Part shown: positions 13 through 43,991 of the stretch, piece by piece
How positions within the stretch are numbered: the stretch's first letter is position 1
Layout: each line of letters begins with the position of its first letter
DNA from: Patescibacteria group bacterium
GTDB lineage: Bacteria; Patescibacteriota; Minisyncoccia; Phycocordibacterales; Phycocordibacteraceae
NCBI GenBank assembly: GCA_018971045.1
Contig: JAGWVF010000004.1
Coordinates: 8,535-72,534, forward strand
Length of the DNA stretch: 64,000 nucleotides
Direction: 5' to 3'
The notes under the pieces: model-generated
Databases searched by the model: none
The model's input: the letters and a program-made list of their open reading frames with translations, nothing else
Told to the model about the DNA's origin: nothing
Translations under genes and position numbers: made by a program

Positions 13-204
13 ATGAGCAAGCAAGACACGCCCGAACAGGGCATGGTCACGCTGTGCGGCGTCCAGGGCTGCTGCCCCACGGTCGACTTCACGGACCCCG
101 CGAAGGTGGTCCTGAAGGACGATTTCGGCGGCCAGGTGCAGCTCACGCCCGAGCAGTGGGCCGACCTGAAGGCCAAGTTCGCCGCAGCCCCCAACCAGGG
201 CTGA
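13..204 (+). CDS. Small Cys-containing hypothetical protein (63 aa; reading frame stays open to the left window edge, so it may be partial). Weak resemblance to DUF397/BldB-like small proteins.
   Basis: ORF-track protein has 3 Cys in LCGVQGCC; CPTVDF...VVLKDDFGG..LTPEQWADLKAKF loosely matches the DUF397 pattern CVEVA...VRDSK..GP.L.F...W.AF; GC3 is near 95%, far above the rest of the window. Confidence 0.35.
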   Translation: MSKQDTPEQGMVTLCGVQGCCPTVDFTDPAKVVLKDDFGGQVQLTPEQWADLKAKFAAAPNQG

Positions 205-236
205 CCTGATCGACATCGTGCACGATGCCGTTCCCG

Positions 237-272
237 GCCCCCAATTGCGCAAGTGATTGGGGGCTGTTCCTT
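237..272 (+). promoter_or_regulatory. Hairpin GCCCCCAAT-N10-ATTGGGGGC with a partly U-rich tail between the small Cys ORF and the rSAM gene (attenuator/terminator candidate)
   Basis: 9-bp perfect stem; followed by TGTTCCTTCACC, then the AGGAG RBS of the rSAM gene. Confidence 0.4.
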
Positions 273-296: not shown

Positions 297-1628
297 ATGT
301 GGTCCCAATATCTTCGTGTAAAGGAAAGGGGTGGCGTGGTGGCGGTGTTCCACGAACTTCATCCTGATCCAATCTTCTGCTCTTCGGAGCAGTGGGAAAG
401 TCTTCAGGCCGGTGTCACTGAAGGCGCCGATGCGCTTATCAGCGATCTCAGGAGGCGCGACTTGCTGATCGAGAATCCCGAAGAAGATCATACGGAGTTT
501 CTCGACGTCGCGACAAAGCTTGAGCGCAAGCTCAATCAGCCGACGATTCTGTATCTGATGACCGCCCAAGGATGCAATCTCCGTTGCGGATATTGTCCCG
601 TGCCGGGGATTGCAAAACGGTACGGGGAGACACTCCTTACTGCAGAGGATGCCTTTGCGGGTATCGATTTATGGGAGGAGCATCTGCAAGAGGTATACGA
701 TCCGCTCCTGCAGTACTTTGTCATTTTCTATGGCGGCGAGCCACTGCTGAACAAAGCTGTAATTGAAGCCTCACTGGGTTATATCAAGAACAAGAAGTCG
801 ATTGGCGCATTGCCAACCAATCTCAACATCATGATCGCCACTAATGGGATCTTGGTTGACGACGAGATCATCGCCCTGTGTCAGGAGCACGCGGTGATGG
901 TTGCGGTTGGTCTTGATGGACCACAAGCACCGAATGACGCGTTGAAAGTTGATCAGTGTGGCGAAGGAACGTTCGATCGGATTGTTGCGACAATCCGTCG
1001 GCTCGTCCAAAGCAACATTAGGACGTTCGCGTCGGTGAGCATTACGCCCTTCAATATCGATCACATAGCGGAGTACGCTGGTTTCTTCAGTGAATTAGGA
1101 GTCGAGAAGTTCGGTTTTAATTTTCTGAAGGGTCGACTACTTCTTGAAGTGGTGGGTCGCGAAGGTCTTGATACCTACTACCATCAGGCGTCGCGCGGCA
1201 TCATTCAGAATTCCCGGCGACAGGGCGCACGCGGCTTCGAATACCAAATGGAGAAAAAGCAGACTGCCTTCGACAATGGAGATTTCTTTCCGGTCGATTG
1301 CACCTGCTATGGCAACCAGTTGGTTATCCAACCTGACGGGCAAATCTCAAATTGCCCGTTCACCAAGACGTGGCTCGGCCACGTGAGGAGTGTGGGTACC
1401 GACTTCCGAATCTGGAATCAGCCGATCGTGAGGAAGTGGAGGAAGAGGTTGCCGCTCTATCATCCTGGGGAGGCCAAGGCCGTTTGCGGTGGAGGGTGTG
1501 CCTGGGGTTCGCAAGAGCTCAAGGGAGATCCGCTCGCCGTAGACGATTCAAGTCGAATTTTCTCTGAAGAGGTGCTCGATGAACTCATCTGGTCGCGATA
1601 CGACAGGCTCAAGTCTGGGCAGACCTAA
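297..1628 (+). CDS. Radical SAM / SPASM-domain enzyme (peptide- or protein-modifying maturase candidate), with a ~90-aa N-terminal extension
   Basis: CNLRCGYC = Cx3Cx2C radical SAM cluster motif; FYGGEPLLN glycine-rich SAM motif; C-terminal SPASM-type Cys set CTCYGN...NCPF...AVCGGGCAWG; AGGAG Shine-Dalgarno 7 nt upstream of the ATG. Confidence 0.85.
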   Translation: MWSQYLRVKERGGVVAVFHELHPDPIFCSSEQWESLQAGVTEGADALISDLRRRDLLIENPEEDHTEFLDVATKLERKLNQPTILYLMTAQGCNLRCGYCPVPGIAKRYGETLLTAEDAFAGIDLWEEHLQEVYDPLLQYFVIFYGGEPLLNKAVIEASLGYIKNKKSIGALPTNLNIMIATNGILVDDEIIALCQEHAVMVAVGLDGPQAPNDALKVDQCGEGTFDRIVATIRRLVQSNIRTFASVSITPFNIDHIAEYAGFFSELGVEKFGFNFLKGRLLLEVVGREGLDTYYHQASRGIIQNSRRQGARGFEYQMEKKQTAFDNGDFFPVDCTCYGNQLVIQPDGQISNCPFTKTWLGHVRSVGTDFRIWNQPIVRKWRKRLPLYHPGEAKAVCGGGCAWGSQELKGDPLAVDDSSRIFSEEVLDELIWSRYDRLKSGQT

Positions 1629-2430
1629 GTTCGGGATTATCGGAGGTTCGGGAATGTGCTCATTCCCTGAACTGAAGTTGATCTCGAGGATCAGGCCCGA
1701 GACGAAGTACGGTTCACCATCCGACGATATCTTGATTTGCGAGTACGGTGGCCAGTCGGTGGCATTTCTTCCCAGGCATGGGTCGAAGCACACGCTGGCG
1801 CCGCACAAGGTTCCCTACAAGGCAAATCTCGCCGCTCTTCGGGAGGTGGGGGTCGAGTATGTAATCGGCACTTGCATTGCCGGGAGTCTCAAGAAAGACA
1901 TTGCTCCCGGCAGTCATGTGCTACTCGACCAATTCGTCAACCTTACCTGGGGGCGCGACGACTCGGTTGAGGCGGATGGGTCATTCGTTCATTTACCGAT
2001 GGGGGAACCCTACTGCAGTCATGTGCGTCGAGCGATGCTCGAGGTCGCGGGCGTGTCGGGTATCGCGATTGTTCCGCAGGGAACCGTTGCGGTGATACAG
2101 GGACCTCGATTTTCAACCGCTGCCGAAAGTCGTTGGCTCTCAGGCAACGGTTGGGACGTGGTGAACATGACACAGTATCCAGAGTGCTACTTCGCTCGCG
2201 AGCTCGGACTCTGTTACGCGGCGATCGGTGCCGTGACGGATTACGATGTGGGACTTCAAGAAACCCTCGTGATAGACCCGCAACGAATGGACGCAATCCT
2301 CGAAGTCTTCAAAGGTAATGTCCAAACGACGAAGAATCTGCTCCTTGCATTCATTGAACGCGCAATTCCCAAACTCTCCTGCAAATGCGCGTCGGTTGTG
2401 CTCAGGGCCTACTACGAGAGTTCTTTATGA
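1579..2430 (+). CDS. mtnP: S-methyl-5'-thioadenosine / 5'-deoxyadenosine phosphorylase (PNP_UDP_1 family)
   Basis: N-terminal KFGIIGGSG; PHKVPYKANLAALREVGVEYVIGTCIAGSL typical of MTA phosphorylase; 50-nt overlap with the upstream rSAM gene; AAGAGG RBS. Confidence 0.8.
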   Translation: MNSSGRDTTGSSLGRPKFGIIGGSGMCSFPELKLISRIRPETKYGSPSDDILICEYGGQSVAFLPRHGSKHTLAPHKVPYKANLAALREVGVEYVIGTCIAGSLKKDIAPGSHVLLDQFVNLTWGRDDSVEADGSFVHLPMGEPYCSHVRRAMLEVAGVSGIAIVPQGTVAVIQGPRFSTAAESRWLSGNGWDVVNMTQYPECYFARELGLCYAAIGAVTDYDVGLQETLVIDPQRMDAILEVFKGNVQTTKNLLLAFIERAIPKLSCKCASVVLRAYYESSL

Positions 2431-2475
2431 ACCCCCCGTCGGAGAACGATCTTCTCCGACGGGGGTTCTCGTTTT
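2431..2475 (+). terminator. Rho-independent terminator (14-bp GC-rich stem, then TTCTCGTTTT)
   Basis: CCCCCGTCGGAGAA-cgatc-TTCTCCGACGGGGG followed by a U-rich tract immediately after the mtnP stop. Confidence 0.7.
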
Positions 2476-2567
2476 ATGCTATTGCTACTATGATAATTTT
2501 ATGGCATTCTGATCTCGGAGCAAAGAACATTTGCATTGTGACTTAATGTAACTCTCTCGAAAGGAAT

Positions 2568-4250
2568 ATGAGCATGTTAAAGGCTACAAAGCTTCAGAAA
2601 AGTTACGGGTCGTTACCCGTGCTTTCTGACGTCTCCTTTTCCCTCGAGCGAGGACAGAAGGTGGCGTTAGTCGGCAACAACGGAACAGGTAAGACAACCT
2701 TGCTCAAAATGATTGCCGGGCTTGAGCACCCGGATGGCGGCACGCTAGAGATAGTTCAGGATGCCTGCGTCGGCTATCTCCCTCAAGACACCAATCTTGT
2801 CGAGGACGTATCCGTCTCGGTGTATCTAAGGAGCATCTCTGGCATTGCCTCTCTTGAGAAGGAGATCGAGGAACTTTCGAAGGACCTCGACGATCCTCGA
2901 AAGGCGAGGCGGTACAGCGAAGTGCACGAGCAGTACGAGCATCTCAATGGGTACGCTTTCGATCGCCGCATGGAAGTGATGTTGGCGGGTTTCGGACTCG
3001 ACCCTATTGGCATTGACCACAAACTGTCCAGCCTCAGTAGTGGGCAGAAAAGTAAGGTAGCGCTGGTGGGCATTTTGCTCAAAGGTGTCGACCTGCTGTT
3101 GCTAGATGAGCCGACAAATAACCTCGACTTGCCTGCGCTTGTTTGGCTTGAGGATTACCTTAAGAAGAGCGAGGCGGCCTGTATCGTCGTCTCTCACGAC
3201 CGTCGATTTCTCGATCGGGTGGTGAAAAAGGTCTTCGAGCTGGACTGGCATACCCATTCTCTCACGATCACGGGAGGTACCTACAGCGACTATCTCGAAA
3301 TGGTTGCGAAGCGGATCGCTCGACAGAAGGAAGACTATCGCATTCAACAAGAAGAGATTGAAAGGCTGAGCGATAAAGCACGCGACAAGCGTGCCGATGC
3401 GGCTCGCGGCGCTCGCTGGATGGGGAAGGATAACGACAAATTCCTCAGAGGCTTCAAGCGCGATCAGGCAGGGAAGTCTGCACGCGTTGCCAAGGCAATC
3501 GATAAGAGGATCGAACAAATGGACAAGGTCGAAAGACCAATCGAACGAGATCCATTTGAGATCCCCCTTGAGGCTGAAGTGAGTTCCGGGGGACTTCATG
3601 TGAGTGCTATCGACGTTGTCGCGGGGTATCGTGATGGCTTCCAGATCGGCCCTGTGTCGTTTGAGCTGCGGTACGGAGATAGAATCGGCATCATGGGGCT
3701 TAACGGCAGTGGGAAATCAACTCTGCTGAAAACCCTCACCGGTCAAATGGAACCACTGAGCGGCAGGATTGAAATTGGCTCCGGCATCAGAATTGGCAAC
3801 ATGATGCAAGAACATGAGACCCTGCCTCGGGAATGTACGTTGCTCGAGTTCCTTACCGAACGAGAGCACCTGACTCGTCAGGATTCCTATGCCAAGCTCG
3901 CCAGATTTGGTTTCGACGAAAGGCAAGTAACTCTGCCTATCGGCACTCTGAGTCCTGGGGGTCGAGCACGGCTCCTCCTCGCTCTGTTCTCGGCGCAGTC
4001 GGTCAACATGCTAGTACTAGATGAGCCGACAAATCACCTCGACCTCGAGGCGCTCGAAGCCCTGGAAGAGATGATGAGGACCTATCGAGGTACAGTAGTG
4101 CTCGTCTCGCACGATCGCTACTTCCTCGAAAAGGCTTCACTTGGTGTTGTGTACGTTTTGTCCGAAGGGGTACTCACCAGGATCCCTGACTACAAGGCGT
4201 ACGAGGCCTCAGCGGAGGAGCGAGCACGAAAGCTACTGAAACTGCTGTAA
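2568..4250 (+). CDS. ABC-F family ATPase (two tandem ABC domains, no TM domain; EttA/Uup/ARE-like)
   Basis: Two Walker A motifs (GNNGTGKTT, GLNGSGKST); two ABC signatures (LSSGQKSKVAL, LSPGGRARLLLA); two Walker B motifs (LLLLDEPTNNLD, LVLDEPTNHLD); inter-domain linker; AAGGAA RBS. Confidence 0.85.
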   Translation: MSMLKATKLQKSYGSLPVLSDVSFSLERGQKVALVGNNGTGKTTLLKMIAGLEHPDGGTLEIVQDACVGYLPQDTNLVEDVSVSVYLRSISGIASLEKEIEELSKDLDDPRKARRYSEVHEQYEHLNGYAFDRRMEVMLAGFGLDPIGIDHKLSSLSSGQKSKVALVGILLKGVDLLLLDEPTNNLDLPALVWLEDYLKKSEAACIVVSHDRRFLDRVVKKVFELDWHTHSLTITGGTYSDYLEMVAKRIARQKEDYRIQQEEIERLSDKARDKRADAARGARWMGKDNDKFLRGFKRDQAGKSARVAKAIDKRIEQMDKVERPIERDPFEIPLEAEVSSGGLHVSAIDVVAGYRDGFQIGPVSFELRYGDRIGIMGLNGSGKSTLLKTLTGQMEPLSGRIEIGSGIRIGNMMQEHETLPRECTLLEFLTEREHLTRQDSYAKLARFGFDERQVTLPIGTLSPGGRARLLLALFSAQSVNMLVLDEPTNHLDLEALEALEEMMRTYRGTVVLVSHDRYFLEKASLGVVYVLSEGVLTRIPDYKAYEASAEERARKLLKLL

Positions 4251-4258
4251 AGCACTTG

Positions 4259-4295
4259 GAACCCGGGCGGGCGCAGCTTGCCCCGGGTTCCTTTC
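4259..4295 (+). terminator. Hairpin AACCCGGG...CCCGGGTT after the ABC-F stop
   Basis: 8-bp inverted repeat with a GC-rich loop, followed by CCTTTCATAAT. Confidence 0.45.
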
Positions 4296-4307
4296 ATAAT
4301 AATCCAC

Positions 4308-4946
4308 ATGATCAAATCAGAACGAATCGCGAAGAAAATAAATGAACAAATATCCGTATGGGGGAATGACCATGCGAAGTTAATTATTGCTATTGAGGGG
4401 TATGCCGGCTCGGGGAAGACGACGGTTGCTGAATATCTCGCAAAAGGGAATACCAACGTGGCTGTCTTGCACCTCGATGATTTCATTAAGCCCTGGGAAG
4501 ATCGGAAGCGACTGATGAACAATGTTGGTGACAAATCAAAAGTATTTGAATACGAATGGTATCGCTATGACGATCTGGAGAAAGTACTCAAACAATTCAA
4601 GGTGAAGAAGCGGGGTGTGATGAAATACAAGGCATACGACTTTAATAAAAATGACTTTGGTCCGGCGAAGTCTCTTGACCTATCAAAAAAGATTTTGGTA
4701 ATTGAGGGTATCTTTCTCCTTCACCAAGAACACGCTATAAGCGCGCTTTGGGATAAAAAAGTGTATCTCGATATTAATTTTGCAAAGGCCGACCGAATGA
4801 GAATTGCAAGAGAAAAGAAGAAGTGGGGCAAGGCGTATCTCCCAGAAGCTCATATTGATAACTGGACCAAATACTTCAAGATTGCCTATCGAAGATATGT
4901 AAAAGAGCACAAGCCGCAGCGCATGTGTGGCTTGAGGTTTGAGTAA
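4308..4946 (+). CDS. Uridine kinase / PRK-family P-loop nucleoside kinase-like protein (low-GC gene)
   Basis: IAIEGYAGSGKTT Walker A; LHLDDF; KILVIEGIFLL; ...LDINFAKADRMRIAREKKKWGK parallels the uridine kinase architecture; about 42% GC versus about 60% core; the longer ORF starts at 4278. Confidence 0.55.
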   Translation: MIKSERIAKKINEQISVWGNDHAKLIIAIEGYAGSGKTTVAEYLAKGNTNVAVLHLDDFIKPWEDRKRLMNNVGDKSKVFEYEWYRYDDLEKVLKQFKVKKRGVMKYKAYDFNKNDFGPAKSLDLSKKILVIEGIFLLHQEHAISALWDKKVYLDINFAKADRMRIAREKKKWGKAYLPEAHIDNWTKYFKIAYRRYVKEHKPQRMCGLRFE

Positions 4947-4958
4947 AAAAAGGCAATA

Positions 4959-6065
4959 GTGGGTTACATGCTCAAGATAGGCATCGTCGGATTACCGAAC
5001 GTGGGGAAGTCTACGCTTTTTAATGCGCTCACCAAGGCGAGCGTGCCTGCCGAGAACTATCCCTTCTGCACGATTGATCCGTCGGTGGGCGTGGTTGGAG
5101 TGCCGGATACACGGCTTCGCCTGCTCGCCGAGTTCTCTCACAGTGAAAAGATCATTCCAGCGGCGATCGAATTTGTTGATATCGCCGGACTCGTGAAGGG
5201 AGCCTCTGAGGGCGAGGGGCTCGGGAACCAATTCCTCGCGAATATTCGCGAGACCGACGCGATCCTCGAAGTGGTGCGCTTCTTCGACGACACCGCTGTC
5301 ATCCACGTTGATAATGATGTCGAGCCGTATAAAGACATCGAAGTGATTAATCTGGAGCTGATTCTGGCCGATGCCGAACAGGTACGGAAACGCCGCGATA
5401 AGATCGCGGGTGACGTGAAGCGCGGATTAAAAGAGGCGATCGCCGAGGAGGCCGCGCTCGCTCGTCTCTCGCAGGCCTTTACCGCGGGCGCTCTGGCGCA
5501 GAGCGCCCGCCTCACCGAGAGCGAGATAAAAGCGGTCGCGCCCCTCAATCTCCTCACGATGAAGCCGATTCTCTATGCGCTCAATAAGAAGAGCGGCGGA
5601 CATAATCTCGATGAGCTCGCGGACGGCCGCGCGGAACGCGCCCATGAGCTTATCCGCATGCTCGGCGGCCGTTCTCTCTACCTTGATGCGGCAGTCGAGC
5701 GGGAGCTCAATGATGTTGCCGATGACGATAAGGCCGGCTTTCGCCAAGAACTCGGCGTCCCTGACGACGGGCTCGCCGGACTCATCATCGCCGCGTATGA
5801 AACGCTCGGACTCATTTCTTACTTTACGACCGGCAGGGACGAGACGCGCGCCTGGACGATCAAGCGAGGCAGTACTGCGCCCGTAGCGGGTGCGGCTATC
5901 CATAATGATTTCTTGAATAAATTCATCCGCGCGGAAGTCATCTCTTGGAAAGATCTTCTTACGGCCGGCTCCTATGCCGCCGCCCGCGAGAAGGGCCTTG
6001 TCCGTACGGAGGGGAAGGAGTACGTCGTCAAGGACGGCGACGTTATCGAATTTCTTCACGGCTAA
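4959..6065 (+). CDS. ychF: Ribosome-binding ATPase YchF
   Basis: MLKIGIVGLPNVGKSTLFNALT G1 motif; C-terminal TGS domain ...EYVVKDGDVIEFLH. Confidence 0.9.
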   Translation: MGYMLKIGIVGLPNVGKSTLFNALTKASVPAENYPFCTIDPSVGVVGVPDTRLRLLAEFSHSEKIIPAAIEFVDIAGLVKGASEGEGLGNQFLANIRETDAILEVVRFFDDTAVIHVDNDVEPYKDIEVINLELILADAEQVRKRRDKIAGDVKRGLKEAIAEEAALARLSQAFTAGALAQSARLTESEIKAVAPLNLLTMKPILYALNKKSGGHNLDELADGRAERAHELIRMLGGRSLYLDAAVERELNDVADDDKAGFRQELGVPDDGLAGLIIAAYETLGLISYFTTGRDETRAWTIKRGSTAPVAGAAIHNDFLNKFIRAEVISWKDLLTAGSYAAAREKGLVRTEGKEYVVKDGDVIEFLHG

Positions 6066-41503: not shown

Positions 41504-41575
41504 GGCCTCATCGTCTAACGGTTAGGACAGATCCCTCTCACGGATCAAATCGGGGTTCGATTCCCCGTGAGGTCA
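41504..41575 (+). tRNA. tRNA-Glu (anticodon CUC)
   Basis: Hand-folded cloverleaf: acceptor GGCCTCA/TGAGGTC; D-stem GTCT/GGAC; anticodon stem GATCC/GGATC with loop CTCTCAC; T-arm CGGGG-TTCGATT-CCCCG; extended -10 TGtTATAAAT about 7 nt upstream. Confidence 0.75.
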
Positions 41576-41633
41576 CAAAGCAAAGCTTCGCTATCAGGAA
41601 GCCCGAAATGGGCGTGTGCCTTCGGCGCGAGTG

Positions 41634-42413
41634 CTATTTATGAAAGCGCTTAAAGTAGACATCGATTTCATCTCGAAGCTCAATGCCGACTCTTTCAAAG
41701 CAGTCGAGCAAATTTTTGTAGGTATTTTTACCGCCAAGAAAATCCCAAAATTCGTCTGCCACCTTAAGTTCATTTTCTAAATCAAGCATTCCGCGCATTG
41801 TCCATCGTGTGTACGGCTCCGGCTCGTACGGATTATACGGAATAGCAATAAAAGTATTTACATTGGCTTTTGGATTATTTACCAAAATTACAGCAACCCA
41901 TTCAAGTAAGGTTCTTTTAAACTCTTTAAACCCGCCTGCATTTGGTTTTGCGGTTTTGATATCGAACAAAAAATATTCACCATCTTTTGACTCAACCATT
42001 AAATCAACTTTCGTCGGCTTTACTTTGATCATTCTACCTGTCTGGCAGACTTTTCGAATTCTTTCAATCTCATCTTTCTTATTCGGAATGATCGTTGCCG
42101 TAGTAAGACCATCAATAATTTTTTGTATCTCGGCCTGTGCGCCAGTGCTTATTTGATTCCCAGCTGTAGCTTGCGAAATCGCCATCTTAAAGCTCTTTTG
42201 CGCTAGAGCAAGGCCAACCGGCTCAAAAATACTCGTACCAAAATTTGTATTGAGAGAATGAATAAATGAATATAGAGCGAGCCTGTCTTTGCCAAGCAAC
42301 CGTGTATGGAAAGGCATTGACGCTGGCTCTGGTTTATAATTTTGAAATTTGTTTCGCAAACTTGCTTTCAAAACCTCTTCAATACTATTTACTTGTTCTT
42401 TAGATAAAGCCAT
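41634..42413 (-). CDS. Type II restriction endonuclease (PD-(D/E)xK-like), hypothetical specificity
   Basis: D-x13-DIK core (KVDLMVESKDGEYFLFDIKTAK); lies 3 nt downstream of the MTase on the same strand; low GC. Confidence 0.55.
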   Translation of the reverse strand: MALSKEQVNSIEEVLKASLRNKFQNYKPEPASMPFHTRLLGKDRLALYSFIHSLNTNFGTSIFEPVGLALAQKSFKMAISQATAGNQISTGAQAEIQKIIDGLTTATIIPNKKDEIERIRKVCQTGRMIKVKPTKVDLMVESKDGEYFLFDIKTAKPNAGGFKEFKRTLLEWVAVILVNNPKANVNTFIAIPYNPYEPEPYTRWTMRGMLDLENELKVADEFWDFLGGKNTYKNLLDCFERVGIELRDEIDVYFKRFHK

Positions 42414-42416
42414 AAA

Positions 42417-43991
42417 TTATTTTGATTTAAAATGAAAGATTATTTCTGAATAAGGATTTCGATCACGCTCTGTTCGGTTTAACACAGGACGCTTGAATTG
42501 ATTGACGATTTTCATTCCCGATTTTTCTGCAATTTCAGGGTAAAGATTATATTTATCGTTTGCTACAAGGAAAATATCAAAGTCGGTTTTGAGATACTGT
42601 TTGCAATTATTCAAAACATCGGCTATTCCTTGAGCGTACGACCGCCGAGCTTCTTGCCCTTGCCCCTTGTACAGGGGACCTATTTCTAAGTCATCCTTTC
42701 GTTTAAATCCGAATAGATCGTACGCATAAGCGTGTTGTTCATGATAATCAATCTGTCCGACATAAGGAGGGGAGCAAAAAATACCTGCTATTTTCTGCTT
42801 TTTAAGAACCTTCGCGAATTCAGGGTTTTGTTTTTCTACCTTCTCAAAGATATCCACTGTTCTTGAATCTCCCGTTATAACAGAGTAGTGAGCTGGTTTA
42901 CGCAATGTATTAAACTCTTTAATACGACCTCGCGTATCAAGCGCATAGCGATTAAGCATTGTTTTTATGGAGAAAAGTGGTTTACAGATTTTCTTATGCT
43001 TAAAACAGTAATATGTTGTAAGTTGTGGTTCTTTGAGCGTCGCTAAATCACTATGGGTTGTCGCTCGACACGATCTAATTGTTCGGCTTAAAATAAGCGC
43101 TAGAATTTTGCGTGTTTTAACATCTTTTTCTTGTTTGATAGCTTGAAACACGTGATCTATCTCACGGCGAACATTATCCATAAACCAAATATCGAGAAAA
43201 GAATCTGATTTACTCTGCTTGAGCTTGATGGAATACTTTTTGAGCAATTTTTGATAGGTTGGCAGAAATTCTCGTTCTTTTTCGGTAGAAAATTTCTTTT
43301 CATCAAAATTTCCTTGATTGATTTTATATTTAAAATCGTGACCCGGGAAATACCTACTGTTAAACTTCGCTAATTCCGCTAAAAGCTCGGTCTCAAATTC
43401 TCGAATTTGATTATCATGTTCAAACGTATCTAACGTGAAAAGCATTTTTTTAATCGCTTTTTGCAAATATTCGTCGTCATAACGTGTTGCCTTACAGCTC
43501 GCAATCATACAATTAAACTCTGACACATCTATACCCACTGAATGAATACCCATTTCTAACGACTGAATAAGCGTCGTGCCTGAACCCATGAAAGGATCGA
43601 GAATAACATCTCCCATTTTGAAATAAACTTCTTTTTTAAAATCGTCCGTATGCGTGTCTATAAAATACTCGACAAGTTGAGGAATGTATTTGCCTTTGTA
43701 GGGGTGGAGACGGTGAACATGCTTTGTGGTATCTTTTTCTCGTAAATTATCGAAAGAAAGTATCCAGTTAAGATCATCGCCAAGGTTTTTCTTCCAGCTT
43801 ATCTCGCGCTCCCCATTATAGGATTGGTAGTATTTTTTTAGATCACCTAAATCAACCATTGTTGAACCATTTTCACCGTATTTCTTCACTTTGCCATATT
43901 GCACAAGATATGAAATGTTCGTTGGCGACACCTCTTTTTCGAGATAATCGGTAGCCCATTTTGATGCTTCCGGTATAGATACTAGAGACAT
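42417..43991 (-). CDS. DNA amino-methyltransferase (N4-cytosine or N6-adenine), cognate R-M MTase
   Basis: AdoMet motif HRLHPYKGK...VILDPFMGSGTT (beta-class style) near aa 90-140; catalytic motif IV IFCSPPY near aa 405; this is the reverse of the usual beta-class IV-then-I order. Confidence 0.8.
   Translation of the reverse strand: MSLVSIPEASKWATDYLEKEVSPTNISYLVQYGKVKKYGENGSTMVDLGDLKKYYQSYNGEREISWKKNLGDDLNWILSFDNLREKDTTKHVHRLHPYKGKYIPQLVEYFIDTHTDDFKKEVYFKMGDVILDPFMGSGTTLIQSLEMGIHSVGIDVSEFNCMIASCKATRYDDEYLQKAIKKMLFTLDTFEHDNQIREFETELLAELAKFNSRYFPGHDFKYKINQGNFDEKKFSTEKEREFLPTYQKLLKKYSIKLKQSKSDSFLDIWFMDNVRREIDHVFQAIKQEKDVKTRKILALILSRTIRSCRATTHSDLATLKEPQLTTYYCFKHKKICKPLFSIKTMLNRYALDTRGRIKEFNTLRKPAHYSVITGDSRTVDIFEKVEKQNPEFAKVLKKQKIAGIFCSPPYVGQIDYHEQHAYAYDLFGFKRKDDLEIGPLYKGQGQEARRSYAQGIADVLNNCKQYLKTDFDIFLVANDKYNLYPEIAEKSGMKIVNQFKRPVLNRTERDRNPYSEIIFHFKSK

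What the first reader, a model, noticed from the sequence alone, without database searches (positions are those of the whole stretch)
297..4946. Lower-GC four-gene block: rSAM/SPASM, 5'-deoxyadenosine/MTA phosphorylase, ABC-F ATPase and uridine-kinase-like gene
These four co-oriented genes are about 52% GC, against about 60% for everything to their right. They are bounded by strong terminators. Two functional links are suggestive. Radical SAM turnover releases 5'-deoxyadenosine, and MTAP-family enzymes salvage it; the two genes overlap by 50 nt. ABC-F proteins are ribosome-protection/antibiotic-resistance factors, often used as self-immunity genes in producers of ribosome-targeting compounds. 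Together this could be a small acquired biosynthetic/immunity island rather than housekeeping.
Basis: inference. Interest (0 to 1): 0.55.

Follow-up and report, generated by a model that had tools for sequence, protein, structure and literature searches.

The report
Radical-SAM mini-protein module with ABC-F
The four genes belong to a five-gene module, widespread but patchy in ultra-small Patescibacteria, whose overlooked first gene encodes a 63-residue cysteine-rich mini-protein that a radical-SAM enzyme probably modifies; the module always travels with a by-product-clearing phosphorylase and usually with a ribosome-binding ABC-F protein.

Summary
The four genes are real. The block is 51.9% GC against 56.8% for the rest of the window, and the 50-nt rSAM/MTAP overlap is genuine and conserved. 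The terminators lie inside the block, not at its edges.

It has invariant Cys15, Cys20, Cys21, Pro22, Asp36 and Asp37, a GC3 of 0.92, and a covarying terminator-like hairpin of its own.

- **Genome scan:** in all ~33 species genomes that carry the rSAM orthologue, the order small ORF, rSAM, MTAP is kept.
- **Metagenome scan:** among 80 independent contigs, rSAM follows the small ORF in 60/73, MTAP in 47/56, and an ABC-F lies within 5 kb in 42/47. Three different gene arrangements keep the same five genes.

The rSAM has an RRE-like N-terminal domain. Its nearest structures are peptide maturases (CteB, TigE, anSME). The ABC-F is not EttA, Uup, YbiT or YheS. Its linker is 25-28 aa longer, as in ARE1-5 resistance factors. 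Module GC3 does not track host GC3 (slope 0.34).

Best reading: a mobile, RiPP-like mini-protein maturation module. The chemistry and the ABC-F role are inferred, not shown. No curated family or paper describes it.

The parts
13..204 (+). 63-aa Cys-rich mini-protein gene ('small63'), the presumed substrate of the rSAM enzyme and the first gene of the module.
   Evidence: The ORF is. Orthologues lie directly upstream of the rSAM gene in all ~33 genome loci and in 60/73 metagenome loci. C15, C20, C21, P22, D36 and D37 are invariant, and G40 with G39 (nearly) invariant. Substitutions at codon positions 1:2:3 run 0.17:0.10:0.50 per codon over 64 distinct orthologues. GC3 is 0.92. The AF2 model has pLDDT 82, with four strands and a C-terminal helix. 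No Pfam or NCBIfam family matches.
208..266 (+). Two hairpins after small63. The second (235-266) is a 14-bp GC-rich terminator-like stem, read as a partial terminator or mRNA stabiliser that would set a high mini-protein:enzyme ratio.
   Evidence: Folding gives -33.2 kcal/mol, z -4.6. The same two-hairpin layout has z < -2 in 29/31 loci, median z -3.95. The consensus stem has 12 pairs, 8 of them with compensatory changes, and a T-run follows in most loci.
297..1628 (+). Radical-SAM enzyme (443 aa) with an RRE-like N-terminal domain, a CX3CX2C core and a partial SPASM/twitch-like C-terminal domain.
   Evidence: Pfam Radical_SAM scores 63.5 bits; SPASM scores 18.1, below 21.5. The best NCBIfam matches are all RiPP maturases and all fall far below their cut-offs. 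Invariant Cys are C93, C97, C100, C335, C337, C353 and C401. The AF2 model has pLDDT 89, and residues 6-79 form three strands then three helices. Foldseek top hits are CteB, TigE, anSME, ChlB, SuiB and SkfB. More than 120 clusters share 54-80% identity, nearly all about 443 aa long.
1579..2430 (+). MTAP-family (PNP_UDP_1) adenine-nucleoside phosphorylase, translationally coupled to the rSAM gene by a 50-nt overlap. Its presumed role is 5'-deoxyadenosine/MTA phosphorolysis.
   Evidence: Pfam scores 126.7 bits. NCBIfam MTAP models score 261 and 235 bits, below their cut-offs of 306 and 275. PDB matches are Sulfolobus MTAPs (1e-52) and human MTAP (3.5e-49), with GIIGGSG, FLPRHG, GPRFST and TDYD aligned. 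The overlap and the N-terminus are conserved.
2433..2465 (+). Strong intrinsic terminator ending the rSAM-MTAP unit.
   Evidence: It has a 14-bp stem with 10 GC pairs and a T-tail; -31.1 kcal/mol, z -5.1. An equivalent terminator sits in nearly all related loci.
2466..2567 (+). ABC-F upstream region, with a promoter-like TTGCTA...TATGG and a conserved ...ACAGTGGTATAAT-like box in relatives (inferred promoter/5'UTR).
   Evidence: This is a by-eye comparison of the intergenic sequences of 25 loci. No uORF is conserved at the peptide level, so an ARE-style leader-peptide attenuator is not supported.
2568..4250 (+). ABC-F ATPase (560 aa; gene callers start it at 2574) with an Arm-bearing NBD1 and an extended inter-domain linker.
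   Evidence: Pfam finds ABC_tran twice plus ABC_tran_Xtn. The protein fails the EttA, Uup, YbiT, YheS and all named ARE models. H-loop1 to Walker A2 is 168 aa, against 140-143 in the E. coli ABC-Fs and 175-176 in Msr; it is 168-175 aa in 41/42 module-linked ABC-Fs.
4258..4291 (+). Hairpin between ABC-F and the kinase gene.
   Evidence: It folds at -27.2 kcal/mol, z -3.2. It overlaps the TTG at 4278, which favours ATG 4308 as the kinase start.
4308..4946 (+). P-loop nucleoside-kinase-like protein (PRK/uridine-kinase family, 212 aa). It is the fifth and looser member of the module, and its role is unknown.
   Evidence: Pfam PRK scores 63 bits. NCBIfam udk scores 52.8, below 220. The nearest PDB entries are Nrk1 (1.7e-7) and uridine kinase. 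It follows ABC-F in 18/27 metagenome loci with room, and follows small63 directly in the convergent architecture. GC is 0.42 and GC3 0.49.

Best explanation
The region is a conserved, horizontally mobile five-gene module: small63 (13-204), rSAM, MTAP, ABC-F and a nucleoside-kinase-like gene.

Proposed mechanism:
- The 63-aa mini-protein is made in large excess. It has its own terminator-like hairpin and an extreme C/G-ending codon bias.
- The RRE-like N-terminal domain of the radical-SAM enzyme captures it.
- The enzyme cleaves SAM to the 5'-deoxyadenosyl radical and installs a covalent modification. The most likely one is an intramolecular Cys thioether between the invariant C-x4-CCP loop and the invariant DD-x-GG turn. 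In a meander sheet these two elements would lie at the same end of the predicted beta-sheet.
- Each turnover releases 5'-deoxyadenosine. The MTAP-type phosphorylase, translated from an overlapping start, converts it to adenine and 5-deoxyribose-1-phosphate, so the rSAM is not product-inhibited.
- The long-linker ABC-F, transcribed separately, binds the ribosomal E site and reaches the peptidyl-transferase centre. It either shields the producer's ribosome from the matured product or works together with it.

Shown: gene content, co-inheritance, fold relationships, RNA hairpins, the composition pattern.
Inferred: that small63 is the substrate, the type of chemistry, the 5'-dA scavenging role, and the ABC-F role.
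For: Linkage:
- small63, rSAM and MTAP are colinear in every genome locus that has an rSAM orthologue of at least 42% identity. These include two actinobacterial contigs of 66% and 64.5% GC.
- An independent metagenome scan seeded on small63 finds rSAM in 60/73 loci, MTAP in 47/56 and ABC-F in 42/47.
- Three architectures (colinear, convergent, divergent ABC-F) keep the same genes.

small63:
- It is protein-coding under purifying selection.
- It is folded, with pLDDT 82.
- Its C-ending codon use is higher than that of the rSAM in 28/32 loci.
- It is followed by a covarying hairpin.

rSAM:
- Residues 6-79 form a three-strand, three-helix N-terminal domain.
- The nearest structures and HMMs are all peptide or protein maturases: CteB 1.7e-17, TigE, anSME, and the QhpD, PapB and FibroRumin models.

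MTAP:
- Active-site motifs, including TDYD, align with solved MTAPs.
- The overlapping start is conserved, 37-50 nt in Patescibacteria and about 8 nt in Actinobacteria.
- One genome carries a second PNP_UDP_1 gene nearby, so the cassette copy is an extra one.

ABC-F:
- The linker is 25-28 aa longer than in EttA, Uup, YheS and YbiT. This matches the roughly 30-aa extension reported for ARE1-5 (PMC6723617).
- The trait is kept in 41/42 module-linked ABC-Fs, including those only 33-35% identical.
- The actinobacterial cassette-adjacent ABC-Fs are sister to the Patescibacteria clade, with bootstrap 70.

Mobility:
- Module GC3 regresses on host GC3 with slope 0.34. It is +0.18 to +0.30 above flanks in AT-rich hosts and -0.07 to -0.21 below them in GC-rich hosts.
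- Flanking genes differ between genomes.
Against: - No modification has been observed.
- The module has no protease, exporter or leader-cleavage site. small63 is conserved along its whole core like a folded protein, not like a leader-plus-core peptide.
- Members of the wider small63 family occur without an adjacent rSAM. Examples are L083 next to FUR/YibE_F, L087/L088, and L150/L151. The invariant Cys and Asp residues may therefore have a function that needs no rSAM, such as metal binding.
- The auxiliary domain is only a partial SPASM.
- Two of four sampled ABC-F orthologues (73% and 66% identical) have no cassette within 6 kb. The ABC-F may be a lineage-typical translation factor next to which the cassette sits.
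- Passing NF000355 is uninformative.
- The NJ tree uses few references, and its deep nodes are weak, with bootstraps of 5-25.
- The composition pattern could partly reflect selection on codon usage rather than transfer.
Confidence: 0.5

Rival explanations
1. small63 is not the substrate. It is a small metal- or Fe-S-binding partner (three Cys plus Asp), for example a dedicated electron donor or chaperone for the rSAM enzyme. The rSAM then acts on something else, such as a nucleoside, a tRNA/rRNA, or the translation machinery served by the ABC-F.
For: The wider small63 family keeps the same invariant C, CC-P and DD-GG residues in contexts that lack any rSAM. One such context sits next to FUR and a YibE/F membrane protein. 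The actinobacterial cassette lies beside a heavy-metal P-type ATPase. The protein is predicted to fold on its own. Radical-SAM enzymes need a low-potential reductant (established knowledge).
Against: The rSAM carries an RRE-like peptide-binding domain, and all its nearest relatives act on peptides or proteins encoded next door. Two adjacent Cys (CC) are poor joint ligands for one cluster (general knowledge). The very high expression signature fits a stoichiometric substrate better than a catalytic partner. The gene order precursor, hairpin, maturase is the classic RiPP layout.
Confidence: 0.2
2. The enzymes make or process a nucleoside-type product, possibly a peptidyl-nucleoside. The rSAM transfers or rearranges an adenosyl unit, the MTAP-like enzyme removes the base (as MqnB does after MqnE in the futalosine pathway), and the kinase-like enzyme phosphorylates it. 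The product targets the peptidyl-transferase centre, and the ABC-F gives self-protection.
For: Three of the five genes encode adenosyl/nucleoside-directed proteins: rSAM, MTAP-like, and an Nrk1/uridine-kinase-like protein. The MTAP copy is dedicated, because it is retained in Actinobacteria and is an extra paralogue in one genome. Module-linked ABC-Fs score best or second-best against the actinomycete producer-type ARE model: 455 bits for L028 and 342 bits for the window protein. Foldseek also finds BlsE and DesII, at lower rank.
Against: RiPP maturases outrank nucleoside-antibiotic rSAMs by 9 orders of magnitude in Foldseek E-value. The MTAP active-site motifs are canonical. Simple by-product scavenging explains the coupling. 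The kinase is the least constant member, following ABC-F in 18/27 loci.
Confidence: 0.12
3. There is no joint function. These are ordinary housekeeping genes (a tRNA/protein-modifying rSAM, a purine-salvage phosphorylase, the lineage's general ABC-F translation factor, and a nucleoside-salvage kinase) that happen to be neighbours. The lower GC reflects gene-specific constraints.
For: The genes sit among core genes: ATP synthase upstream, and ychF, leuS and ribosomal proteins downstream. No integrase or transposase flanks them. ABC-F orthologues exist without the cassette. Patescibacteria rely on nucleoside salvage (general knowledge).
Against: Linkage survives three different rearrangements and occurs in at least two phyla, and in hosts ranging from 28% to 66% GC. 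Flanking housekeeping genes are not conserved. The distribution is patchy: about 35 orthologue-bearing species genomes in a scan of 185,579. GC3 is decoupled from the host. Cassette proteins are 4-27 points more similar between genome pairs than TrpRS, MraY or DnaJ.
Confidence: 0.08
4. The module is an anti-phage defence or toxin-antitoxin system, with a viperin-like rSAM making a chain-terminating nucleotide and a PNP-type effector.
For: There are weak PADLOC matches of the rSAM core to pVip (32 bits) and of the kinase to VakA (20 bits). In one genome an AAA_21/AAA_15 gene lies downstream. The distribution is patchy and looks mobile.
Against: The pVip matches cover only the generic rSAM core. 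Peptide maturases match far better. The MTAP-like protein has no PADLOC match, and no defence model covers the set.
Confidence: 0.05

Closest known systems
SCIFF/ranthipeptide systems (precursor plus CteB/ScfB-type rSAM-SPASM maturase) and PapB Cys-X3-Asp thioether formation
   Same: A minimal precursor-then-maturase layout with no dedicated protease or exporter. The precursor is Cys-rich and conserved along its length. The maturase has an N-terminal RRE. CteB is the top structural match, and the PapB and SCIFF models are among the best HMM matches. small63 has C21-P-T-V-D25, a Cys-X3-Asp/Glu spacing kept in most orthologues.
   Different: It has three rather than six Cys. The substrate is a 63-aa protein predicted to be a folded beta-sheet. 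Only four auxiliary Cys are invariant, so one cluster is expected, and all family cut-offs are missed by a wide margin. The module also has an obligatory MTAP, a linked ABC-F and a kinase. The hosts are Patescibacteria and Actinobacteria, not Clostridia.
QhpD/QhpC (rSAM maturase forming Cys-Asp/Glu thioethers inside the small gamma subunit of quinohemoprotein amine dehydrogenase)
   Same: An rSAM crosslinks a small protein that stays a folded polypeptide rather than a released peptide. The QhpD model is the second-best NCBIfam match, at 99.6 bits. Cys and Asp residues are the invariant positions of small63.
   Different: There are no dehydrogenase subunits, no QhpE protease and no quinone-forming Trp. 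The score is far below the 453-bit cut-off.
Antibiotic-resistance (ARE) ABC-F proteins with extended linkers (ARE1-5; producer-type OleB/CarA/TlrC/SrmB; VmlR)
   Same: The protein has two ABC domains and a linker 25-28 aa longer than in EttA, Uup, YheS and YbiT. This equals the extension described for ARE1-5 (PMC6723617). The linker aligns end-to-end with that of VmlR2. The producer-type model is the second-best NCBIfam match for the window protein and the best for the actinobacterial one. The gene is linked to a biosynthetic-looking cassette.
   Different: It fails every named ARE model. It keeps a full Arm subdomain, unlike Msr and VmlR. No resistance phenotype or cognate antibiotic is known, no leader-peptide attenuator is present, and orthologues also occur without the cassette.
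MTAP/MtnP and 5'-deoxyadenosine salvage; MqnE + MqnB of the futalosine pathway as precedent for an rSAM paired with a PNP_UDP_1 enzyme
   Same: The fold and motifs are canonical MTAP. 5'-dA is the universal rSAM by-product and a known MTAP-family substrate (established knowledge).
   Different: The gene is physically and translationally coupled to one particular rSAM gene and co-inherited with it across phyla. I know of no such coupling in a RiPP-type cluster, and four literature searches found none. It scores below the MTAP equivalog cut-offs.

Membership tests
Radical SAM superfamily (PF04055) | CX3CX2C motif binding the SAM-cleaving [4Fe-4S] cluster, and a partial TIM-barrel core | tested here: met
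   C93-x3-C97-x2-C100 is invariant in 20 orthologues. Pfam scores 63.5 bits against a cut-off of 29.5. The AF2 model superposes on the CteB and anSME cores.
SPASM domain (PF13186 / seven-Cys motif) | CX9-15GX4C ... CX2CX5CX3C ... C, binding two auxiliary [4Fe-4S] clusters | tested here: not met
   Pfam scores 18.1, below 21.5. Only C335, C337, C353 and C401 are invariant. C337-x10-G348-x4-C353 is present, but the CX2CX5CX3C block is absent (sequence reading). The domain is better described as twitch-like or half-SPASM with one predicted auxiliary cluster.
RRE (PqqD-like RiPP recognition element) | N-terminal winged-helix domain of three beta-strands followed by three helices that binds the precursor | tested here: inconclusive
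   The AF2 model has E6-11, E14-19, E26-29, H30-37, H45-53 and H61-79, with pLDDT above 90. Full-length alignment to the RRE-bearing CteB spans 456 columns. No PqqD Pfam hit at E <= 0.01, and binding was not tested.
Curated RiPP rSAM maturase families (FibroRumin TIGR04136, QhpD TIGR03906, PapB NF047865, SCIFF TIGR03974, anSME TIGR03942 and others) | Score at or above the curated NCBIfam cut-off | tested here: not met
   The best is FibroRumin, at 121 bits against a cut-off of 400. QhpD scores 99.6 against 453, PapB 88.5 against 340, and anSME 58.6 against 349.
MTAP (S-methyl-5'-thioadenosine phosphorylase) | PNP_UDP_1 fold; the phosphate- and ribose-binding motifs; the Asp-x-Asp (TDYD) that selects 6-aminopurines; equivalog score | tested here: inconclusive
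   Fold and motifs are met: Pfam 126.7 bits, with GIIGGSG, FLPRHG, GPRFST and T220-D-Y-D223 aligned to 1v4n and 2a8y. Equivalog cut-offs are missed: 260.9 against 306, and 234.8 against 274.85. Substrate preference was not testable here.
ABC-F family | Two ABC ATPase domains joined by a charged helical linker (ABC_tran_Xtn), with no transmembrane domain | tested here: met
   Pfam finds ABC_tran twice (169.6 bits) and ABC_tran_Xtn at 25.9 bits, exactly at its cut-off. PDB matches are all ABC-F proteins.
EttA / Uup / YbiT / YheS housekeeping ABC-F subfamilies | Equivalog score; linker of about 140-143 aa between H-loop 1 and Walker A2; clustering in a tree | tested here: not met
   Scores are 304 against 599, 298 against 900, 272 against 762, and 264 against 917. 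The linker proxy is 168 aa, against 140-143. The protein sits outside these clades in the NJ tree.
Named ARE ABC-F families (Vga, Msr, Lsa, Sal, OptrA, PoxtA-like, CplR, CarA/producer type) | Score at or above the curated cut-off, and a demonstrated resistance phenotype | tested here: not met
   All scores are below cut-off; the best is the producer type, at 342 against 800. The generic NF000355 model is passed at 430 against 380. E. coli Uup, YbiT and YheS also pass it at 418-432, and EttA scores 377, so it does not discriminate. Phenotype is not testable here.
ARE1-5-type linker extension (structural trait, not a family) | Inter-domain linker about 30 aa longer than in EttA | tested here: met
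   The linker is 28 aa longer than in EttA, and the length is constant in 24 genome orthologues and in 41/42 metagenome module-linked ABC-Fs. The criterion comes from PMC6723617.
Uridine kinase (udk) / PRK family | P-loop nucleoside-kinase fold, and the udk equivalog score | tested here: inconclusive
   Pfam PRK is met, at 63.1 bits against 22. The udk equivalog is not met, at 52.8 against 220. The nearest solved relatives are Nrk1 and uridine kinase, at only E 1e-7 to 1e-5.
DUF397 (PF04149), considered for small63 because of a remembered resemblance | Pfam score at or above the gathering threshold | tested here: not met
   None of 25 orthologues hit it. One distant member of ten scanned, P0300, gives E 0.029 and 15 bits, below 24. 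tblastn against plasmids gave only an E = 6 hit.

The most novel reading that the evidence does not exclude
The matured mini-protein, possibly carrying an adenosyl- or ribosyl-derived adduct processed by the MTAP-like and kinase-like enzymes, is a ribosome-directed effector. The long-linker ABC-F is its dedicated antidote. On this reading the module is a mobile toxin/immunity (or translation-control) system used by ultra-small episymbiotic bacteria, and the first RiPP-type cluster with an ABC-F immunity gene and a built-in 5'-deoxyadenosine-handling enzyme.
Probability: 0.18. Interest if true: 0.85.

Novelty: new variant of a known kind. Interest (0 to 1): 0.62.

Why it matters
Patescibacteria have tiny genomes with very few biosynthetic clusters. 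A five-gene module kept together through rearrangements, and shared with Actinobacteria, is therefore likely to matter for their biology.

It defines an uncurated family pair, with no match in Pfam, NCBIfam or the searched literature:
- the small63 family, with 525 representatives at 50% identity;
- the rSAM family, with more than 120 clusters at 90% identity.

The constant coupling of an rSAM maturase to its own MTAP suggests that by-product removal can limit a high-flux protein modification.

The persistent link to a long-linker ABC-F gives a concrete, testable candidate for the unknown natural role of ARE-like ABC-F proteins outside antibiotic producers.

The module's GC3, decoupled from its hosts in both directions, also serves as a marker of gene flow among uncultivated lineages.

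Tried and rejected
- **DUF397 homology of small63.** This was a resemblance recalled from memory. It is not supported: searches give a single faint hit, and one search gives only E = 6.
- **NF000355 as evidence for an ARE.** Rejected after calibration, because E. coli housekeeping ABC-Fs score the same.
- **Leader-peptide attenuator upstream of ABC-F.** uORFs exist in some loci but are not conserved in frame or sequence, and the terminator precedes them rather than following them.
- **Gene-caller start for MTAP (258 aa, no overlap).** Rejected because it removes the conserved GIIGGSG motif.
- **TTG 4278 as the kinase start.** Disfavoured, because it lies inside the hairpin and callers use ATG 4308.
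- **Defence-system membership.** PADLOC gave only generic matches.
- **Rfam.** No family matches in the block.
- **Housekeeping-versus-cassette identity as an HGT test.** Only three shared flank genes were available, so the result is suggestive, not decisive.
- **Literature searches.** Four searches for the module found nothing.
- **Mobility genes in the flanks.** None were seen.

Full report
**1. The observation**

The four ORFs exist as described. They are rSAM 297-1628, an MTAP-family gene 1579-2430, an ABC-F 2568-4250, and a PRK/uridine-kinase-family gene 4278-4946.

The rest of the window is 56.8%, or 57.6% without a restriction-modification island, and not 60%. The deficit is uneven. The three larger genes have GC3 of 0.61-0.62, against a window median of 0.69. 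The kinase gene has GC3 0.49.

The block is not bounded by terminators:
- The strongest terminator (2433-2465, z -5.1) separates MTAP from ABC-F.
- A hairpin at 4258-4291 separates ABC-F from the kinase.
- A hairpin at 235-266 belongs to an upstream gene.
- The kinase runs into ychF after 12 nt, with no structure between them.

The 50-nt rSAM/MTAP overlap is real. The MTAP N-terminus encoded within it (MxSSGxD...GIIGGSG) is conserved in about 30 loci. The shorter start chosen by gene callers would delete the phosphate-binding GIIGGSG motif.

**2. The missed gene**

Ninety-two bases upstream of the rSAM lies a 63-codon ORF at 13-204. It is a real gene, on three lines of evidence:
- Against 64 distinct orthologues, differences per codon position are 0.17, 0.10 and 0.50.
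- C15, C20, C21, P22, D36 and D37 are invariant, and G40 with G39 are invariant or nearly so. The motif is LCGxxGCCPxV[DE]F...[KR]DDxGGxVxLT.
- AlphaFold predicts four strands and a C-terminal helix with pLDDT 82.

An exhaustive profile search finds 525 representatives at E <= 1e-3, and those listed are mostly 48-80 aa long. No Pfam or NCBIfam model matches it.

Its GC3 is 0.92, far above every other gene in the window. Across loci it uses C-ending NNY codons more than the rSAM gene does: 0.64 against 0.48 pooled, and higher in 28 of 32 loci. This is the usual signature of high expression.

It is followed by two hairpins, the second a 12-14 bp GC-rich stem with a T-run. The layout has z < -2 in 29/31 loci, and 8 of 12 consensus pairs show compensatory changes. 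Precursor, leaky terminator, maturase is the classic RiPP operon layout (established knowledge).

**3. Linkage**

*Genome scan.* A scan of one genome per species with the rSAM alignment returned about 33 true orthologues of 42-77% identity.
- Whenever the contig reaches far enough, the order small63, rSAM, MTAP is kept on one strand.
- ABC-F follows in about 25 loci, and the kinase in about 12.
- The hosts are Patescibacteria: Zambryski-, Vogel-, Uhr- and Paceibacteria, and Minisyncoccales.
- Two loci are genuine actinobacterial contigs at 66% and 64.5% GC. One of them (L028) is flanked by ChdC, MsrB, a heavy-metal P-type ATPase and an aminotransferase.

*Metagenome scan.* An independent scan seeded on small63 gave 80 loci.
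- rSAM lies within 400 nt downstream in 60/73 loci with room.
- MTAP is present in 47/56.
- An ABC-F lies within 5 kb in 42/47.
- The kinase comes right after ABC-F in 18/27.

*Alternative architectures.* The exceptions are informative.
- A convergent architecture keeps all five genes: small63 and the kinase on one strand, facing ABC-F, MTAP and rSAM on the other (L163, L168, L172, L173).
- A third architecture has the ABC-F upstream, mostly divergent. It occurs in loci of about 61-66% GC (L155, L160, L028, L032) and in one locus of 28% GC (L157).

*Flanks.* Flanking genes are not conserved. In this window they are ATP synthase and ychF/leuS. Elsewhere they are S6/SSB, or HIT/translin.

Linkage that survives rearrangement and phylum boundaries argues for a joint function.

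**4. The parts**

*rSAM.*
- It has the invariant CX3CX2C motif and four further invariant Cys. C337-x10-G-x4-C353 is present, but the CX2CX5CX3C block of SPASM is missing. Pfam SPASM is below its threshold.
- I therefore call the C-terminal domain twitch-like or half-SPASM.
- Residues 6-79 of the model (pLDDT 89) form three strands followed by three helices, the architecture of an RRE.
- Its nearest structures are CteB (1.7e-17), TigE, anSME, ChlB, SuiB and SkfB.
- Its best HMMs are the FibroRumin, QhpD, nif11, PapB and SCIFF maturases, all far below their cut-offs.
- It is thus an unclassified peptide/protein maturase.

*MTAP homologue.*
- It aligns over its full length with Sulfolobus and human MTAPs, including the TDYD that selects adenine nucleosides.
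- It misses the equivalog cut-offs.

*ABC-F.*
- It is roughly equidistant from all solved ABC-Fs, at 203-244 bits.
- It fails the EttA, Uup, YbiT, YheS and every named ARE model.
- The only model it passes, NF000355, is passed or nearly passed by the four E. coli housekeeping proteins (377-432 bits). It therefore carries no information.
- Its architecture is informative. NBD1 keeps the Arm: Walker A1 to H-loop is 173 aa, as in E. coli, against 116-118 aa in Msr.
- H-loop 1 to Walker A2 is 168 aa in all 24 genome orthologues, against 140-143 in EttA, Uup, YheS and YbiT, 142 in OptrA, 151 in PoxtA and 175-176 in MsrA/E.
- Murina et al. report that ARE1-5 linkers are about 30 aa longer than EttA's (PMC6723617).
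- The long linker is kept in 41/42 module-linked ABC-Fs, including those only 33-35% identical.
- In an NJ tree the Patescibacteria clade (bootstrap 82) is sister to the actinobacterial cassette-adjacent ABC-Fs (bootstrap 70) and separate from the E. coli, OptrA, PoxtA and Msr references. Deeper nodes are unresolved.
- The actinobacterial protein scores best on the producer-type TlrC/CarA/OleB/SrmB model, at 455 bits against a cut-off of 800.
- Against a dedicated role: two of four sampled ABC-F orthologues (73% and 66% identical) have no cassette within 6 kb.

*Kinase.* It is only distantly related to Nrk1 and uridine kinase.

**5. Composition**

Across 26 loci, the mean GC3 of rSAM, MTAP and ABC-F regresses on the median GC3 of flanking genes with slope 0.34 (r 0.50).
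- In AT-rich hosts (flank GC3 0.22-0.36) the module is 0.18-0.30 higher than its flanks.
- In GC-rich hosts (this window, L011, L028, L032) it is 0.07-0.21 lower.
- The ABC-F shares the shift. The kinase is always AT-rich.
- Not all loci deviate; L004, L010, L018 and L020 do not.

Between the same genome pairs, cassette proteins are 4-27 points more similar than TrpRS, MraY or DnaJ. Only three such comparisons were possible.

Taken with the patchy distribution and the variable flanks, I read this as repeated horizontal movement of the module among lineages, without recognisable mobility genes. Selection on codon usage cannot be excluded.

**6. Mechanism and rivals**

*Best-supported reading (about 0.5).* This is a RiPP-like mini-protein maturation module.
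- Abundant small63 is bound through the RRE-like domain.
- The rSAM installs a crosslink. A Cys thioether is most likely, by analogy with CteB, PapB and QhpD.
- The Cys loop (14-22) and the DD-x-GG turn (36-40) are the beta1-beta2 and beta3-beta4 connections, so in a meander sheet they would lie at the same end of the sheet (inference).
- Oxidation of C20, in a C-x-P context, to formylglycine is an alternative chemistry suggested by the anSME similarity (inference).
- The overlapping MTAP gene supplies stoichiometric removal of 5'-deoxyadenosine. This makes sense if the substrate is very abundant. One genome keeps a second PNP_UDP_1 gene nearby, so the cassette copy is dedicated.
- The ABC-F either protects the ribosome from the product or acts with it.

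*Rivals.* Their weights are given in the rivals section:
- small63 as a metal/Fe-S partner. This is supported by family members that lack an adjacent rSAM and sit in metal-related contexts.
- A nucleoside or peptidyl-nucleoside product.
- Unrelated housekeeping neighbours, largely refuted.
- A defence system.

**7. Comparison with known systems, and novelty**

The closest systems are SCIFF/ranthipeptide and QhpC/QhpD for the maturation part, ARE-type ABC-Fs for the fourth gene, and MTAP-based 5'-dA salvage for the third. The futalosine pair MqnE/MqnB is a precedent for an rSAM working with a PNP_UDP_1 enzyme.

No defining cut-off of any curated family is reached, apart from the broad superfamilies. 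Four full-text searches found no description of the module.

I classify it as a new variant of a known kind: an rSAM peptide/protein maturation system with an unusual fixed partner set (MTAP, long-linker ABC-F, kinase) and an unusual host range.

**8. Limits**

- No experiment or complex prediction was possible.
- The ABC-F tree uses nine references and the NJ method.
- Presence or absence could be judged only within 6-10 kb of each hit, not per genome.
- The species-genome count depends on exact peptide patterns and is a lower bound.
- Organism labels of several MAGs are unreliable. For example, contigs of 0.88 and 1.34 Mb labelled Gammaproteobacteria carry 63-66% identical cassettes.

Noticed in passing
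window 41634-43991 (- strand), next to tRNA-Glu at 41504-41576: A sharp low-GC island (37-39% GC, GC3 0.34-0.35) encodes a TdeIII-type restriction endonuclease (Pfam 314 bits) and an N6/N4 DNA methylase. It looks like an acquired type II restriction-modification system beside a tRNA gene.
   Followed up: partly
L001:5467-5536 (- strand), about 200 nt upstream of the window's first base: A sub-threshold fluoride-riboswitch match (22.6 bits against a gathering score of 34, E 8e-4) lies in front of a 192-aa minus-strand gene with no Pfam family, in the 376-nt gap before small63.
   Followed up: no
window 13-204 and orthologues in L004-L036: small63 has the highest GC3 of any gene in almost every locus, up to 0.94 and 0.25-0.50 above its flanks in most loci, whatever the host GC. 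Expression-linked codon bias is the likely cause, but its size is striking.
   Followed up: partly
P0198 (116 aa): A tandem duplication of the small63 fold in one polypeptide. The first copy keeps the LCG..CCP motif, while the second has lost the Cys residues (RGHNCYLRIDF).
   Followed up: no
L148 (metagenome contig), 268-2555: A degenerate variant. The small63 gene has a scrambled 3' end and is followed directly by ABC-F and the kinase, with rSAM and MTAP deleted. This suggests the cassette can be lost while ABC-F and the kinase stay.
   Followed up: no
L083 (75% GC contig) 713-2830; L087/L088 (33% GC): Stand-alone small63-family genes sit next to FUR and a YibE/F membrane protein, or next to a prefoldin-like gene, with no rSAM nearby. 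The family is wider than the module.
   Followed up: partly
window 2382-2430 (MTAP C-terminus): The C-terminal LSCKCAS aligns with the CSCC motif of the Sulfolobus MTAPs. From memory, that motif forms stabilising disulfides there. It is odd in a mesophilic-looking Patescibacterium.
   Followed up: no
unfetched contig (ENA ERZ1426617), genes at 443-1219 and 5003-5857: A second PNP_UDP_1 paralogue of 258 aa lies 3.8 kb upstream of the cassette's own MTAP gene in one relative. The cassette copy is therefore not the genome's only nucleoside phosphorylase.
   Followed up: no
window 2466-2567 and the same region of about 20 loci: The sequence upstream of ABC-F contains a block conserved at the nucleotide level (...GTACCTTAACAGTGGTATAAT...). 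It is more conserved than a plain promoter would need to be and could be a regulatory RNA or protein-binding site.
   Followed up: no
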